From Acidimicrobiia bacterium (GTDB taxonomy: Bacteria; Actinomycetota; Acidimicrobiia; Spongiisociales; ZC4RG35): DNA of 64,000 nucleotides. The translations under genes and the position numbers were made by a program. Of the stretch, positions 1,062-4,190 are shown in pieces. The first letter of the stretch is position 1, and every line of letters begins with the position of its first letter. The notes beneath the pieces are model-generated. The model worked only from the letters and a program-made list of their open reading frames with translations, ran no database searches and was not told where the DNA came from. The stretch is taken from positions 1,664,001-1,728,000 of the forward strand of contig OZ244034.1 of NCBI GenBank assembly GCA_965215185.1. Direction: 5' to 3'.

Positions 1062-1809
1062 TCATCTGGGAATGATCTTCGTGTAACCGCACGACGGTTC
1101 GGTCCGGTACCTGGAACACGCCCAGAAGCGTCCGTATCTGATCTTCTCTACGAGAATGCCTATCTCGCACTGTGGGCAGGCCTTTGGTCTATATTCGCAG
1201 GAAATGTTGGTGCATTCGGGTTGCCCACGCTCACCAGAGACCAACGAGTAACCGACTCTGCACCTAATGCATCGGGGTGCGAGATAGTCACAGGTCGGAT
1301 AGTTCGAACACCTCAGGTTCTTGCCACTCTGGGACCGGGTCAGACGGCCGCTTCGGCAACGGGCGCACTTCGGAGCGAGGTCGCCAAGTCGCGATATGAC
1401 ATTGGACTCGCCGAGTAGTTCGGTGACGAAGATGGATGGTCGCATGGGATCCGCGACCAGATAGGTTCCGATACGGGCGCGTGTCATCGCCACATAGAAG
1501 AGGCGCCGATCCTCGGCGAATGGGAACGCCTTTCCGCGCAGAGGGGGTAGCACTAGGTCCAGTAACGGGTCGTCGTCTACCCGGCATGGGAATCCCATGC
1601 GGTCATCCTTGAGGTCCACTACTACCACATAGTCGGCCTCTTTCCCTTTGGCACTGTGCGCTGTGCTGAACTGCACCTTCAACTGACCGGGCGGTCGGAG
1701 CGGTCGGAGGGCCTTTCGACTGGAGCGATAACGGCCGAGGACAAGCACTGACCGGCGTTCACCCTTTGCATGGGTTTTGATCTGATCAAGGGCTTGTCGT
1801 ATCCCGTGA
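1062..1809 (-). pseudogene. helD: DNA helicase IV (UvrD family) C-terminal part with topoisomerase-type C4 zinc ribbons, split by IS110
   Basis: STAHSAKGKEADYV, EDRRLFYVAMTRAR and repeated CxxC motifs; joins in frame with 3205-3550 when the IS is removed. Confidence 0.85.
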
Positions 1810-2951
1810 TGCTTCTATGTTCTCCAAATCGAAGCTTTTGGCGGGGAATGGGATTTTGAGCTTGTGGGGGTGTTGCGGCGTTTCCGAGTGGAACGGTGGG
1901 GCTGGTTCGGCCGGGGTTGGGGGCGGGTTTTGTAGGAGTCGGTAGAGGTGGCGGGCGATGTACCGTTTGAGGCAGCGGCGGGCTTCTCGGGTGGTTTTTC
2001 CTTGGCTGATGCGTTTGGCGATGTAGGCCCGGGTTTTGGGGCAGTCCCGAGCGCGGGTGATAGCGATGGTGTGGAGGGCGCGGTTGAGTTGGCGGTCGCC
2101 GTAGCGGCTTAGCCGGTGGCGGGTTTGTTGCCCCGAAGAAGCTTGGAGGGGTGCTACGCCGGCCAGGCGAGCGACGCGGCCTCGTTGCGGCATCGGCCTG
2201 GGTGGGACCAGGCGATGAACACCTGCGCGGCGGTGACCGGACCAATCCCGAATTGGTCGAGCAACTGCGGAACTGCGGCTGTGACCATTTCGGCGATGGG
2301 CGTTTTCAGCTCTGCTATTTCATTGTTGAGGTTGCGGATGCGTCTGGCTGTAGAACGTAGGGCTTGTTTGGTGGCGGTCAGTTCGTTGACGGAGGCGGGT
2401 CGGATTCGAAACGCCGCGCACTTGGCCACCAGAGCAGTTGTGCTCAGACCTCGGAGTTGGTCCCGAAGATCGACCGGAGCGGTCACTACCAGGGCTTTTA
2501 GCTGGTTGATGGCCGATACTCTGGCCCCTTGGGCGCCCTGGCGGGTGGTCTCCAACACTCGCAAGGCTTCGCGGTCTCCCCTAGCCCGCGGGACAGATGG
2601 CCAAGGACGGCCCAGCACCTGGCGAGCGGCCCGCCGAGCGTCCAGTGCGTCGGTTTTGGCGCCGTCGCGGGTAGGGGTGGGATCGTTGAACTCCACCACT
2701 AGTTCACCTCGGGCGGCGAGATAGGTGGTCACGCCTGCTCCGTAACTGCCCGAGCCTTCCACCGACCACACCCGCTCAGCCGTCTGAGTGTGCTGGTCTG
2801 CCCATTTCAACAACCGGTCATATCCCAGCCGGGTGGTTCCGAACACCGCAGTCGCTTGTTCTCCGGTGGTGGAAGTGTCTACTACCGCGGCGGTGACCCG
2901 GTCACGATCAGGATCGATCCCGATCACATGCTCTACCATTGTGGCCAACAT
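1786..2951 (-). pseudogene. IS110 DEDD recombinase/transposase with a 1-bp frameshift near 2174
   Basis: GIDPD, VEGSGSYG and KTDALDA (DEDD) in ORF 2154-2951; ARLAGVAPLQASSG...GDRQLNRALH...RCLKRYIAR continues in another frame. Confidence 0.9.
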
Positions 2952-3206
2952 AAGAAACCTTCTCTTTCTTGTGCGAACTGGGCTAGTGCCTCACAAGGCG
3001 CAAACCGTGACGGCAGGACTGTGATGAGTCACACCCCATGGGTGGACAAGCTTCTGATCAGGCCAGCAACGGAACGCCCAGGGGCGTCAGCGGCGGTGTC
3101 GGACATATCACGGCAAAGACACAAAGGTCAGAGTGGTCTCGGGTCACGACACCACCGCTGACGCCAATCCTGGCAGCCTCTACAAGGCCCCCCCAATACT
3201 CACAGA
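1808..3206 (-). mobile_element. IS110-family insertion sequence, about 1.4 kb, with 2-bp core at both junctions
   Basis: GA at 1808-1809 and 3205-3206 (TC on the element strand); removal restores the helicase frame D-T-T-H-G-I-R-Q; no terminal inverted repeats. Confidence 0.93.
2960..3200 (-). ncRNA. Predicted IS110 bridge RNA in the non-coding left end (ends approximate)
   Basis: 19-bp stem (3083-3101 with 3147-3165) enclosing segments that match both target flanks; a second loop matches both element ends. Confidence 0.8.
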
Positions 3207-3550
3207 GTGGTATCTGACTCGAATATGACGCTGATCCCGGTATCGTCTCCGCTGCTGCTCGAACGTAGTGGCCTTCGTGTCTGCTCTGGGTTGCGCCGCA
3301 CGAACGCGGTCGACGGGTCAAGGATGCCGCGACCAAAGCGGAAAGTCTGACTGAGGGTTCGCTCCGTGGTATAACCGAGATAGGCCTGACAGGTGCGCAC
3401 GAGACCCACATCACTACCGGCGAAGCGGTAGATGGACTGCCAGTCATCACCAACCAGGAACCAAGCAACATCGAACCGCGCGAGCGCCTGCAGCAACGCC
3501 ATCCGACCCCTGGAGATGTCCTGAAACTCGTCTACCAAGACATAGGCGCG
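3205..3550 (-). pseudogene. helD: DNA helicase IV central fragment (N-terminus missing)
   Basis: YVLVDEFQDIS (Walker B), VGDDWQSIYRFAGSD, LSQTFRF; homology is lost upstream of about 3550 and no Walker A is present. Confidence 0.85.
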
Positions 3551-3845
3551 ACAGCACGGCCTGTTGGCCACCACTTTTGACCTGGAACTCAATAGAGGTT
3601 CCAGCGAGGGCACCGCGATTAAATCGGGGGGTCGCCACGGTTGAAATACCATAAGTGGGCACCCACTTGAGGCCGTGTGTCTGGTTGTGTTGCTAGGGCA
3701 GCCTCCTTGCATAAGGCCCGGGCGAGCCTGAGGGATTTCCCCCCGACAAGGTTGCCCTATCCCCATGCATCCACGACCAGCGCCATCCGCCCATGTTTTG
3801 CGATATCGAGACCCGCCCACTTGGGCATCCGTTATGCTGTGATGT

Positions 3846-4190
3846 ATGGGCGAAGAGATTCTGAGGGAAATGGCTGGCGAAATGCTGGCAAGCATGACAG
3901 ATGCTGAGATCGCTGCCCTCCGCGAGGACGCTGAGATCATTGCTCGCTGCGAAGATCCGAGCGAGGATTTTGAGAACATAGACAGCCGCCCACTCACTCC
4001 CGAGGAGATCGCATGGGTGACCTCTCTGGCGGATGGCATGTTCTTCAATCTTTCTCCAGAAGGCCAGATTGACGACATCCTTCATCTGCCCGCACATGTT
4101 TCAGCGAGGCTCTTGGCCCAGATGAGCGCTTCAGAAAGAGAGAACATCCTTTCCCGCCTACCCGAAGAACTAGCGCAAAGCATCATATAG
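3846..4190 (+). CDS. Acidic hypothetical protein; C-terminus resembles MgtE N-terminal helical repeats
   Basis: 114-aa ORF with protein-like composition; ARLLAQMSASERENILSRLPEE pattern. Confidence 0.55.
   Translation: MGEEILREMAGEMLASMTDAEIAALREDAEIIARCEDPSEDFENIDSRPLTPEEIAWVTSLADGMFFNLSPEGQIDDILHLPAHVSARLLAQMSASERENILSRLPEELAQSII

What the first reader, a model, noticed from the sequence alone, without database searches (positions are those of the whole stretch)
1804..3211. IS110 element whose left end encodes readable guides for its own target and donor (bridge RNA, TC core)
Seen: removing 1810-3206 restores the helicase frame, giving target ACCAC-TC-ACGG and circular donor AGAAGCA-TC-TGTGA on the element (minus) strand. 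The 250-bp non-coding end has a 19-bp stem (3083-3101 with 3147-3165). Its single mismatch is a G-U pair only on the minus strand, which supports RNA from that strand. Inside the stem are ACCACTC (3131-3137), identical to the left target plus core, and CCGTGA (3108-3113), complementary to core plus right target, with a small hairpin between them. A second loop carries AGAAGC (3050-3055), matching the element right end, and TCACAG (3019-3024), complementary to the element left end. The base after CCGTGA pairs only with the post-insertion junction, like a handshake base. Established: this is the two-loop layout of the IS621 bridge RNA. Inference: a programmable RNA-guided recombinase variant with a TC rather than CT core and imperfect donor pairing at the core.
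Basis: partly seen in the sequence, partly recalled or inferred. Interest (0 to 1): 0.85.

Follow-up and report, generated by a model that had tools for sequence, protein, structure and literature searches.

The report
IS110 bridge-RNA element, single-C crossover
A 1.4-kb jumping gene of the IS110 family sits inside a helicase gene and carries a guide ("bridge") RNA that spells out both its insertion site and its own ends; in this group of elements the element and its targets share only one letter (C) at the crossover, not the usual CT pair.

Summary
Window 1810-3206 (minus strand) is a 1397-bp IS110-family element. Removing it restores a UvrD-like helicase frame. A public metagenome contig carries the exact empty site.

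Its 253-nt left end folds into the two-loop bridge-RNA layout. Across 38 relatives 95% of cells pair, against 34-49% in slid controls, and 24 of 39 pairs show compensatory changes. The target guides covary with the flanks of other copies: left 6.4 of 8 against 2.6 shuffled, right 3.9 of 6 against 1.7, with 0 of 10000 shuffles reaching either value.

The window copy has a frameshifted recombinase gene. A 98.6% identical copy elsewhere in the genome is intact.

The "TC core" reading is only partly right. The circle junction reads ATA-GAAGCAT-CT-GTGAG-TAT. That is the IS621 donor layout, with A6 T7 C8 T9. The targets share only C8. The base before C8 is read by the left target guide. The base after it is read by the right target guide and is rarely T. 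The crossover therefore lies at that C.

The element is a new member of a known kind. Its clade looks like a variant with a one-letter shared core. RNA expression and the circular form were not shown.

The parts
1810..3206 (-). IS110-family element, 1397 bp, counted with one copy of the TC that stands at both junctions
   Evidence: Excision restores the helicase frame. An empty-site contig skips exactly 1397 bases. A 98.6% identical full copy lies elsewhere in the genome.
3205..3205 (-). The shared C at the left junction. Its twin at the right junction is window 1808. It is the only base common to donor and targets across the clade.
   Evidence: The base before TGTGAG is C in 38 of 40 non-redundant flanks. 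The right end finishes in TC in 43 of 43 cases.
2952..3204 (-). Non-coding left end that encodes the bridge RNA
   Evidence: Fold z-score -4.2. Consensus structure with covariation across 38 relatives.
3196..3204 (-). Left terminus TGTGAGTAT. It holds the right donor arm (T9 GTGAG), the TAT sub-terminal repeat and a TGT-GAGTAT extended -10-like box.
   Evidence: TGTGA is invariant in 38 of 38 relatives.
3083..3165 (-). Target-binding loop domain. The outer stem pairs 3165-3147 with 3101-3083.
   Evidence: Helices 2 and 3 are 94-96% paired, and 13 of their 20 pairs show changes on both sides.
3131..3140 (-). Left target guide GAGACCACTC, same sense as the left target
   Evidence: It matches its own flank GATACCACTC at 9 of 10 positions and copy B's flank CAGACCACTC at 9 of 10. 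Family permutation test.
3118..3129 (-). Small hairpin between the two target guides
   Evidence: Helix 4: 5 pairs, 3 with changes on both sides.
3109..3113 (-). Right target guide CCGTG, complementary to C-ACGG of the target top strand
   Evidence: Family permutation test.
3107..3108 (-). Handshake guide of the target loop, A then U. It pairs with donor T7 and A6.
   Evidence: G96 and A97 are invariant. The second base covaries with the donor base: T:A 14 and C:G 9 of 27.
3011..3065 (-). Donor-binding loop domain. The closing stem pairs 3065-3062 with 3014-3011. The inner hairpin is 3047-3028.
   Evidence: Helices 5 and 6. Alifold of the sub-alignment.
3047..3056 (-). Left donor guide CAGAAGCUUG, same sense as the right end ...AGAAGCATC
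   Evidence: AG-AGC-TG is invariant. Positions 6 and 8 do not match the donor.
3019..3024 (-). Right donor guide UCACAG, complementary to C-TGTGA of the circle junction
   Evidence: Invariant in 38 of 38 relatives.
3017..3018 (-). Handshake guide of the donor loop, U then C. In this subfamily it pairs with neither target base 7 (T) nor target base 6 (C).
   Evidence: Family-wide it pairs with target base 7 in 39 of 48 cases and with base 6 in 33 of 48.
2154..2951 (-). Recombinase gene, first frame (265 aa, DEDD RuvC-like domain)
   Evidence: PF01548, E 1.3e-13.
1786..2193 (-). Recombinase gene, second frame (Tnp domain with the catalytic serine). This frame runs out of the element into the flank.
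   Evidence: PF02371, E 6.8e-11. A one-base deletion near 2174-2175 relative to copy B. The missing base is present in part of the contigs of all four runs laid, 91.9 of 175.5 depth in X1.
1808..1833 (-). Conserved right terminus CGATTTGGAGAACATAGAAGCATC. It holds the -35-like TTGGAG (1827-1822), the ATA sub-terminal repeat (1818-1816), the left donor arm GAAGCAT (1815-1809) and the shared C (1808).
3207..4078 (-). Upstream part of the interrupted UvrD-like helicase gene
   Evidence: PF00580. The frame continues after in-silico excision.
1062..1807 (-). Downstream part of the interrupted helicase gene (UvrD_C and a Top1-type zinc ribbon)
   Evidence: PF13361, PF13538 and PF01396. Frame restored.

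Best explanation
This is an IS110-group insertion sequence that moves by bridge-RNA-guided recombination.

Shown from sequence:
- The element interrupts a helicase gene at ...ACCACT-C-ACGG....
- Its left end encodes a structured RNA with two internal loops.
- In the first loop, GAGACCACUC repeats the left target up to a C, and CCGUG is complementary to that C plus the right target.
- In the second loop, AGAAGC repeats the right end, and UCACAG is complementary to the C plus the left end.

Inferred, by analogy with IS621:
- The element excises as a circle whose junction reads ATA-GAAGCAT-CT-GTGAG-TAT.
- That junction brings a -35 box from the right end 17 nt upstream of a TGT-GAGTAT box in the left end. 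This switches on the RNA and the recombinase.
- Recombinase loaded with the RNA pairs the donor junction with a target and exchanges the top strands.
- After the exchange, the two bases 3' of each right guide (the handshake guides) pair with the other DNA.

Specific to this clade:
- Donor and targets share only the C. This is position 8 if the donor is numbered as in IS621.
- Target position 7 is free and is read by the left target guide.
- Target position 9 is free and is read by the right target guide.
- The sequence crossover is therefore at that C. This is one base 5' of the IS621 top-strand cut as measured against the conserved donor motif.

The window copy cannot make full-length recombinase because of a one-base deletion. 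Its guide loops are identical to those of the intact copy B, so it could be moved in trans.
For: Element and ends:
- frame restoration, and an empty-site contig that skips 1397 bases with a 2-letter ambiguity.

Protein (intact copy B):
- PF01548 and PF02371.
- NF033542 'IS110 family RNA-guided transposase' at 172.6 bits against a cut-off of 140.
- Homology to the ISCro4 and IS621 transposases, with the D, E, D, D and S columns kept.

RNA structure:
- 39 pairs are 95.2% paired, against 34-49% when the partners are slid.
- 24 pairs show changes on both sides, and 0 of 500 shuffles reach the observed values.

Guides:
- Left target positions 1-8 match the element's own guide at 6.43 of 8, against 2.56 +/- 0.28 shuffled (0 of 10000; 40 pairs).
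- Right target matches at 3.92 of 6, against 1.66 +/- 0.20 (0 of 10000; 36 pairs).
- Diverged copies in the same genome (76-92% identical) have different guides that match their different flanks.

Handshake:
- In the target loop, the second handshake base against donor base 6 gives T:A 14 and C:G 9 of 27.
- The donor-loop handshake pairs with target base 7 in 39 of 48 cases and with base 6 in 33 of 48. It pairs with its own donor T7 in only 5 of 48.

One-letter core:
- The right end finishes in TC in 43 of 43 cases.
- The flank base before TGTGAG is C in 38 of 40 cases.
- The target base before that C is A 16, T 10, G 12, C 2 of 40, and it equals the left target guide in 34 of 40.
- The first base after the C at the right junction is A 17, G 10, C 4, T 3 of 34.
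- The empty site of this copy reads C-A.
- An uninterrupted target of a sister subfamily reads ...TTTTGA-C-ATAGGAGC... at three genome places.

Donor layout as in IS621:
- IS621 has dA6 dT7 dC8 dT9 and donor ACAGTAT.CT.TGTAT (passages).
- ATA and TAT trinucleotides flank the donor (figure legend). Here there are exactly 14 nt between ATA and TAT.

Junction promoter:
- 31 of 31 reconstructions have TTGnnn 17-18 nt before TGT-GAGNNT, and 17 of them have TTGACA.
- No sigma-70-like site was found in the integrated copy.
- The same hybrid promoter is described for IS621 and ISPpu10 (passages).
Against: - No RNA evidence. The only RNA library laid (X20) gave six contigs 90-95% alike, so they come from relatives.
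- No circle junction was seen. I laid the linear form only.
- Rfam 15 gave no match. I do not know whether it holds a bridge-RNA family.
- The window copy is frameshifted.
- In this subfamily the handshake is unfavourable by IS621 rules. Target base 7 equals donor base 7 (T), so the target-loop A can pair before the exchange. The donor-loop UC pairs with neither target base.
- The left donor guide has an invariant G opposite the shared C, which the simple model does not explain.
- The crossover at the C is read from junction sequences. It assumes that one strand's exchange fixes the product. Cleavage sites were not measured.
- The related sequences are not independent events, so the permutation figures overstate significance.
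- 9 of 55 rows were dropped from the left-target test because my anchor pattern missed their guide. Some rows keep mis-anchored left guides, but its handshake counts do not use them.
Confidence: 0.85

Rival explanations
1. This is a bridge recombinase whose core is a fixed dinucleotide, TC, shared by donor and target in place of CT. The geometry is otherwise that of IS621, with the cut after the second core base.
For: In copies A and B both junctions carry TC, and the empty-site ambiguity is 2 letters. The right target guide always ends in GA, the complement of TC (G96 and A97 are invariant). If the cut always follows core position 9, the C would be position 9 and the T position 8.
Against: The target base before the C is not T in 30 of 40 non-redundant flanks, and it then follows the left target guide. 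The donor-loop base opposite that position pairs with the target's base and not with the donor's T: 39 of 48 against 5 of 48. That is handshake behaviour, not core behaviour. With this numbering the ATA and TAT repeats no longer flank a 14-nt donor symmetrically.
Confidence: 0.12
2. The chemistry is the canonical IS621 chemistry: CT core, top-strand cut after T9, bottom-strand cut 4 nt away. The one-letter overlap seen in genomes is produced afterwards by biased mismatch repair or replication of heteroduplex junctions.
For: IS621 products are expected to carry mismatches next to the core that the cell must repair (passages from the discussion of PMC11208158). Donor numbering, the AT-CT motif and the 'CU' at the end of the left target guide are canonical.
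Against: A cut after position 9 would put the target's base 9 at the left junction and the donor's T at the right junction. The opposite is seen here: T at the left junction (TGTGA is invariant in 38 of 38 left ends), and the target's base (T in only 3 of 34) at the right junction. To obtain this by repair, positions 6-7 would have to be fixed from one strand and position 9 from the other in every event. Preprints report mainly top-strand transfer (passages).
Confidence: 0.1
3. The left-end structure is not a guide RNA. It would be a DNA or mRNA-leader element, such as a recombinase-binding site or a translational control. The matches to target and ends would be leftovers of earlier insertions.
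For: No transcript was shown. The recombinase gene follows directly, so any transcript of the left end is also a leader.
Against: The G.U pairs are allowed only on the minus-strand transcript. Guides change together with flanks in many subfamilies while the stems keep pairing through compensatory changes. The left guides are in top-strand sense and the right guides are antisense, as in IS621 (passage).
Confidence: 0.02

Closest known systems
IS621 (E. coli) bridge recombinase and bridge RNA (Durrant et al. 2024, PMC11208160; Hiraizumi et al. 2024, PMC11208158; passages read)
   Same: DEDD RuvC-like domain plus a Tnp domain with serine. The non-coding RNA lies in the left end, upstream of the gene. 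The target loop comes first and the donor loop second. Left guides pair with the bottom strand and right guides with the top strand. Two-base handshake guides lie 3' of each right guide. The donor is 14 nt with A6 T7 C8 T9 between ATA and TAT. The promoter is split across the circle junction.
   Different: The protein is only distantly related (E 2.6e-9, partial alignment). Targets here lack the T of CT. Positions 7 and 9 of the target are free and only the C is shared. The inferred crossover is at the C. The right target guide reads 5-7 bases. The left donor guide carries a fixed mismatch at the C.
ISCro4 / IS622 (Citrobacter rodentium; PDB 9t56; preprint 10.1101/2025.05.14.653916, passages read)
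   Same: Best solved-structure relative (E 7e-11). The catalytic columns are aligned. The guide and handshake scheme is the same.
   Different: It recombines between CT cores. The host is a proteobacterium, while this clade is in Acidimicrobiia and other Actinomycetota.
ISPpu10 / ISEc21 and other IS110-group elements studied since 2024 (10.64898/2026.03.19.712850; PMC11187229; passages read)
   Same: A hybrid junction promoter with the -35 box in the right end and the -10 box in the left end. No target duplication. The non-coding left region is needed for circle formation and insertion.
   Different: Those papers describe a conserved CT core. ISPpu10 adds recognition of a target stem-loop, which I did not examine here.
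IS1111 group / seekRNA elements (PMC11187229)
   Same: The same recombinase superfamily and an RNA-guided choice of target.
   Different: Their RNA lies downstream of the gene in a long right end, with long sub-terminal inverted repeats. Here the long non-coding end is upstream.

Membership tests
IS110 family, IS110 group (bridge recombinase elements) | Recombinase with a DEDD RuvC-like domain (PF01548) and a Tnp domain (PF02371) carrying the catalytic serine | tested here: met
   The window copy has both domains, split by a frameshift. Intact copy B has both in one frame. It scores 172.6 bits on NF033542 against a cut-off of 140. The D, E, D, D and S columns are kept against ISCro4. Mapping them to IS621 D11/E60/D102/D105/S241 uses the residue list and an offset of 3 that I counted myself.
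IS110 family, IS110 group (bridge recombinase elements) | Long non-coding left end upstream of the gene, short right end, no long terminal inverted repeats, no target duplication beyond the core | tested here: met
   The left end is 253 nt before the ATG. The gene runs to the right terminus. Only 2 letters are ambiguous at the empty site.
Bridge RNA (IS621 type) | Two internal loops, each closed by stems and holding a hairpin, conserved by covariation | tested here: met
   95.2% paired, and 24 of 39 pairs with changes on both sides.
Bridge RNA (IS621 type) | First-loop guides covary with the insertion site: left guide in top-strand sense, right guide antisense | tested here: met
   0 of 10000 shuffles reach the observed match, for either side.
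Bridge RNA (IS621 type) | Second-loop guides match the circle junction (right end, core, left end) | tested here: met
   AGAAGC and TCACAG are invariant and match the conserved termini. The match is imperfect at donor positions 6 and 8 in the left donor guide.
Bridge RNA (IS621 type) | Handshake guides pair with the non-cognate DNA at positions 6-7 | tested here: met
   Met family-wide. In the window's own subfamily the donor-loop handshake pairs with neither target base, and the target-loop A can pair with its own target T.
Bridge RNA (IS621 type) | [quoted passage not shown] | tested here: not met
   The donor junction has CT. Targets share only the C. The base after it is T in 3 of 34 right junctions. 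The empty site of this copy reads C-A. An uninterrupted sister target also reads C-A.
Bridge RNA (IS621 type) | Short ATA and TAT sub-terminal repeats flanking the 14-nt donor | tested here: met
   ATA-14 nt-TAT in the window's junction. CATAG is conserved in the right ends. TAT, AAT or TGT stands in the left ends. The feature itself is taken from a figure legend.
Bridge RNA (IS621 type) | Promoter rebuilt at the circle junction | tested here: inconclusive
   By sequence only. 31 of 31 junctions have TTGnnn-17/18-TGT-GAGNNT and 17 have TTGACA. The window's own boxes are weak: TTGGAG and GAGTAT.
Bridge RNA (IS621 type) | The RNA is made and is needed for recombination, and a circular intermediate exists | not testable with these tools
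   Only contigs of public runs were available. The RNA contigs came from relatives.
Rfam families | Match to a curated covariance model | tested here: not met
   No relevant hit at E <= 1 in window 1500-3500.

The most novel reading that the evidence does not exclude
This Acidimicrobiia/Actinomycetota clade may be a natural bridge-recombinase lineage whose only fixed requirement in the target is a single C. Both neighbouring bases would be programmable, and the top-strand cut would be shifted one base relative to the conserved donor motif of IS621. If so, it shows that the 'CT core' is not a universal constraint of bridge recombination. It would also offer a scaffold with a wider choice of target sites.
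Probability: 0.45. Interest if true: 0.65.

Novelty: new variant of a known kind. Interest (0 to 1): 0.5.

Why it matters
Bridge recombinases are being developed as programmable tools for inserting, deleting and inverting DNA. All the characterised ones I found are described with a CT (or NT) core that limits which sites can be addressed (passages).

A natural clade in which donor and target share only a C would bear on this in two ways. The two neighbouring bases are read by the guides, so the clade gives a direct comparative test of what the core is for: enzyme contacts or strand-exchange register. It also suggests orthologues with looser site rules.

The genome offers a built-in data set. 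It holds several diverged copies with different guides, empty sites in public metagenomes, and elements that target each other's ends.

For the host, the element is an ordinary polymorphic insertion that knocks out one helicase gene.

Tried and rejected
- Rfam search of window 1500-3500 at E <= 1. It returned one irrelevant weak hit, to a human lncRNA model.

- Public runs. The single RNA library, X20, held 0.04 of the sampled words. It gave six contigs 90-95% alike on 2111-2427, 2639-2693 and 3010-3067. These are relatives, so this is no evidence that the element is expressed. No circle junction was looked for, because only the linear stretch was laid. Parts without cover say nothing.

- Promoter and terminator scan of the integrated left end, window 2900-3300: 0 sites of either kind. 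This fits a junction-only promoter but is weak evidence, since the scan uses an E. coli consensus.

- RNAalifold on the whole left end paired the terminal UGUGA with the right donor guide. I set this aside. It is the trivial consequence of the guide being complementary to the left end, and the inferred transcript start lies downstream of it. That start is an inference. I re-folded without those five columns.

- A CT core shifted within the target (ACCA-CT-CACGG) was rejected, because it predicts a left junction two bases shorter than the one observed (reasoned).

- My first anchor pattern mis-placed the left target guide in 9 of 55 rows. Those rows were dropped. The second attempt still mis-anchors about eight rows (L047, L050, L051, L061, L068, L082, L084, L088), so I cite for left-guide counts and only for handshake and right-flank counts.

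- Copy F, and rows L030 and L058, were left out of the right-target counts because the first right-end match found was not their own terminus.

- Copy F has AATTTGAC on both sides. I could not explain this.

- I did not build a covariance model or search other collections. The scan of genome contigs was used once.

- Literature. A search for 'TC core', 'non-CT core' or 'core nucleotide' together with IS110 and bridge RNA found only the engineered non-CT cores of Durrant et al. I read passages, not whole papers.

Full report
WHAT IS THERE

Window 1810-3206 on the minus strand is a 1397-bp insertion sequence inside a UvrD-like helicase gene.
- Its two reading frames carry the DEDD RuvC-like domain (PF01548, 2951-2154) and the Tnp domain (PF02371, 2193-1786) of IS110 transposases.
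- The helicase pieces on either side carry UvrD N- and C-terminal domains and a Top1-type zinc ribbon.
- Removing 1810-3206 in silico gives one open helicase frame...SVIFESDTT|HGIRQALDQ....
- The boundaries are confirmed by data independent of this assembly. A 1201-nt contig of public run X6 matches the flanks without a mismatch and joins window 1807 to 3205. It skips 1397 bases, with two letters that fit either side. A contig of run X1, from another study, shows the same joint with a short side of 28 letters.
- The insertion is therefore polymorphic in nature, either by gain or by precise loss.

Every string and coordinate is as stated.
- The 19-bp stem pairs 3165-3147 with 3101-3083 and has one G.U pair, which would be A.C on the other strand.
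- ACCACTC (3137-3131) is identical to the left flank up to the junction. CCGTGA (3113-3108) is complementary to TCACGG at the right junction.
- AGAAGC (3055-3050) repeats the right end. TCACAG (3024-3019) is complementary to CTGTGA at the left end.
- In 200000 shuffles of the left end, the 7-mer followed within 60 nt by the 6-mer occurred 23 times.
- The left end folds with a z-score of -4.2.

OTHER COPIES

The window's genome is one contig of 3.12 Mb and holds more copies.
- Copy B is full length, 98.6% identical, and has an intact 428-codon frame.
- Diverged or broken copies C to H are 71-92% identical.
- There is also a 67-bp solo left end.
- Relative to copy B, the window copy lacks one base near 2174-2175. 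This separates the serine-bearing Tnp domain from the RuvC-like domain. The missing base is present in part of the contigs of all four runs laid, 91.9 of 175.5 depth in X1.
- The window copy also has an extra T at 3089. This T pairs a base that is an unpaired A in copy B and in the close relative L029. The same place is a G-C pair in 31 of 38 relatives.
- Its four guide segments are identical to those of copy B.

The diverged copies have different loop sequences and sit in different sites, and the two agree.

| Copy | Left guide | Left flank | Right guide read as DNA | Right flank |
|---|---|---|---|---|
| F | TAAATTTGAC | TCAATTTGAC | not compared | not compared |
| D | ACAACAACCA | CCAACAACGC | TCCCTAT | CCTGT |
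| H | CCAAAACCC | ACCAAACCC | not compared | not compared |

I then fetched 66 loci that encode relatives. Most are from Acidimicrobiia metagenome-assembled genomes. The most distant, at about 41% protein identity, are in Actinomadura, Actinoallomurus and Mycobacterium. The termini C|TGTGAGTAT and CATAGAAGCATC are recognisable in most of them.
- Left target. Over 40 non-redundant pairs, positions 1-8 equal the element's own guide at 6.43 of 8 places, against 2.56 +/- 0.28 when guides are dealt out at random (0 of 10000). Nine of 55 rows were dropped because my anchor missed the guide.
- Right target. Over 36 pairs, the first six bases match at 3.92 of 6, against 1.66 +/- 0.20 (0 of 10000).
- These sequences are related to one another, so the figures overstate independence. 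More than ten distinct guide groups are present, however.

RNA STRUCTURE

An alignment of 38 left ends gives a consensus with six helices:
- a long outer stem;
- an internal loop with a small hairpin (the target loop);
- a closing stem;
- a second internal loop with a hairpin (the donor loop).

On the 39 pairs, 95.2% of cells are standard pairs, against 34-49% when the 3' partners are slid by 1-3 columns. 24 pairs have changes on both sides. None of 500 shuffles reaches any of the five measures. Rfam has no matching family. This is the layout described for the IS621 bridge RNA: left guides pair with the bottom strand, right guides with the top strand, target loop first and donor loop second (passages).

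THE CORE

- Across the clade the right end always finishes ...(A/G)TC (43 of 43), and the base before TGTGAG is C in 38 of 40 flanks.
- The target base before that C is A 16, G 12, T 10, C 2. It equals the corresponding base of the left target guide in 34 of 40 pairs. The T of 'TC' therefore belongs to the donor and is not shared.
- On the other side, the left end always begins with T. The first base after the C at right junctions is A 17, G 10, C 4, T 3 of 34, and it is read by the right target guide.
- The empty site of this copy reads ...ACCACT-C-ACGG.
- The uninterrupted target of the F-type subfamily...GATTTTGA-C-ATAGGAGCTCACC, stands at three places in the same genome. It matches the occupied junctions ...AATTTGA-C-TGTGAG and ...GCAT-C-ATAGGAGCTCACC.
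- Only the C is common to donor and target, and the sequence crossover lies at it.

COMPARISON WITH IS621 NUMBERING

The circle junction reconstructed from the two ends reads ATA-GAAGCAT-CT-GTGAG-TAT.
- IS621's donor is ACAGTAT.CT.TGTAT (passage), with dA6 dT7 dC8 dT9. It is flanked by ATA and TAT trinucleotides (figure legend).
- The donor here has the same 14-nt frame and the same AT-CT. In this numbering the shared C is position 8.
- The right donor guide UCACAG pairs with A13 to C8 and is invariant.
- The next two bases pair with target positions 7 and 6 in 39 and 33 of 48 cases, and with the donor's own T7 in only 5 of 48.
- In the target loop, the right guide ends in an invariant G, opposite C8. 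An invariant A follows, opposite donor T7. Then comes a base that is T where donor 6 is A (14 cases) and C where it is G (9 cases), with 4 exceptions.
- This is the two-base handshake described for IS621, where these guides pair with the non-cognate DNA after top-strand exchange (passages).

What differs is position 9.
- IS621 cuts its top strands after T9, and both partners carry that T.
- Here the left junction always has the donor's T and the right junction has the target's base. The top-strand crossover must therefore lie 5' of position 9.
- Two preprints report that IS110 elements transfer mainly the top strand (passages). That makes reading the crossover from junctions reasonable, but it remains an inference.
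- The alternative numbering, with the C as position 9 and a core of 'NC', describes the same facts. It fits the handshake and the flanking repeats less well.

THE WINDOW'S OWN SUBFAMILY

Its target has T at position 7, the same as the donor. This is why TC appears at both junctions. By IS621 rules that arrangement is unfavourable.
- The target-loop A can pair with its own target before the exchange.
- The donor-loop UC pairs with neither T7 nor C6 of the target.
- I cannot tell whether this lowers activity or changes the balance between insertion and excision.

PROMOTER

- In 31 of 31 non-redundant reconstructions, a hexamer beginning with TTG lies 17-18 nt upstream of TGT-GAGNNT across the junction.
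- 17 have a perfect TTGACA. The window's subfamily has TTGGAG and GAGTAT.
- No sigma-70-like site is found in the integrated copy.
- The same split promoter is described for IS621 and ISPpu10 (passages).
- The expected start lies downstream of TGTGA, so the RNA would not contain the sequence that its own right donor guide matches.
- All of this is inferred from sequence. The one RNA library available held only relatives.

PROTEIN

- Copy B passes NCBIfam NF033542, 'IS110 family RNA-guided transposase', at 172.6 bits against a cut-off of 140.
- It aligns with the solved ISCro4 (E 7e-11) and IS621 (E 2.6e-9) transposases.
- The aligned columns keep the aspartate of GID, the glutamate, the TDxxD pair and the serine of SG. 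IS621's catalytic residues are named.

VERDICT

- The element is a new member of a well-described kind.
- The window copy is defective for recombinase, but its guide RNA gene looks intact and an intact partner copy exists.
- The claimed 'TC core' dissolves into something more interesting: a canonical CT in the donor, with only a C shared with the targets.
- I did not find this described in the papers I could search (passages only; supplements closed). I therefore rate it a new variant of a known kind, with moderate interest, pending biochemical mapping of the cut.

Noticed in passing
G000:C1:374093-375216 (copy C, in L003) and G000:C1:978291-981097 (copy F, in L005/L010): Both copies are interrupted at the same element position (about 1125, in the recombinase gene, at ...CGCCAACTCAAC-C...). 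In C the insert is another IS110-type element, whose own left end holds AAACTCAACC in a loop-like context that matches this site. In F about 1.5 kb is inserted. One IS110 element appears to target a conserved coding motif of another.
   Followed up: partly
G000:C1:984062, 1647195, 2652773 (and a variant at 1753607): The F-type subfamily's target ...GATTTTGA-C-ATAGGAGCTCACC stands uninterrupted in a repeated sequence that looks like the right end of yet another IS110-like family (TTGACA box, then ATAGGAGC). Right-end fragment J (G000:C1:1621754-1621891) is inserted in such a sequence.
   Followed up: partly
G000:C1:978291-981110 (copy F): Copy F has the 8-mer AATTTGAC on both sides. A right-end-like sequence lies upstream and a 23-nt right-end remnant lies downstream. 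No simple one-step insertion explains this. It may be tandem or half-match events.
   Followed up: no
L002:1755-3041 (copy B); window 1786-2193 (-): The recombinase frame has no stop codon inside the element and runs into whatever flank it lands in: 141 nt further in copy B, 24 nt in the window copy. In the circle it would run on across the junction into the left end. Where it stops there was read by eye and not checked by a call.
   Followed up: no
G000:C1:2697870-2697936: A solo fragment holds the first 67 bases of the element at 100% identity. It is preceded by ...ACCCACTC and followed by unrelated sequence.
   Followed up: no
window 3089: An extra T in this copy turns an unpaired A of the outer stem into an A-U pair. 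The T is absent from copy B, and one base is left out at this place in contigs of three runs: all of the depth there in X1, 82.3 of 163.9 in X5 and 70 of 85.3 in X6.
   Followed up: partly
G000:C1:2341294-2345151: An IS-dense stretch. Copy B, copy H and several right-end fragments lie within 4 kb. The left flanks of copies B and G and of L030 share a longer sequence (...GGTGGACAGACC(A/G)CTC), so this subfamily's usual target is itself a repeat.
   Followed up: no
window 1062-1748 and 3200-4078 (-): The interrupted gene is a UvrD-like helicase with a C-terminal topoisomerase-type zinc ribbon. It is intact in part of the natural population.
   Followed up: partly
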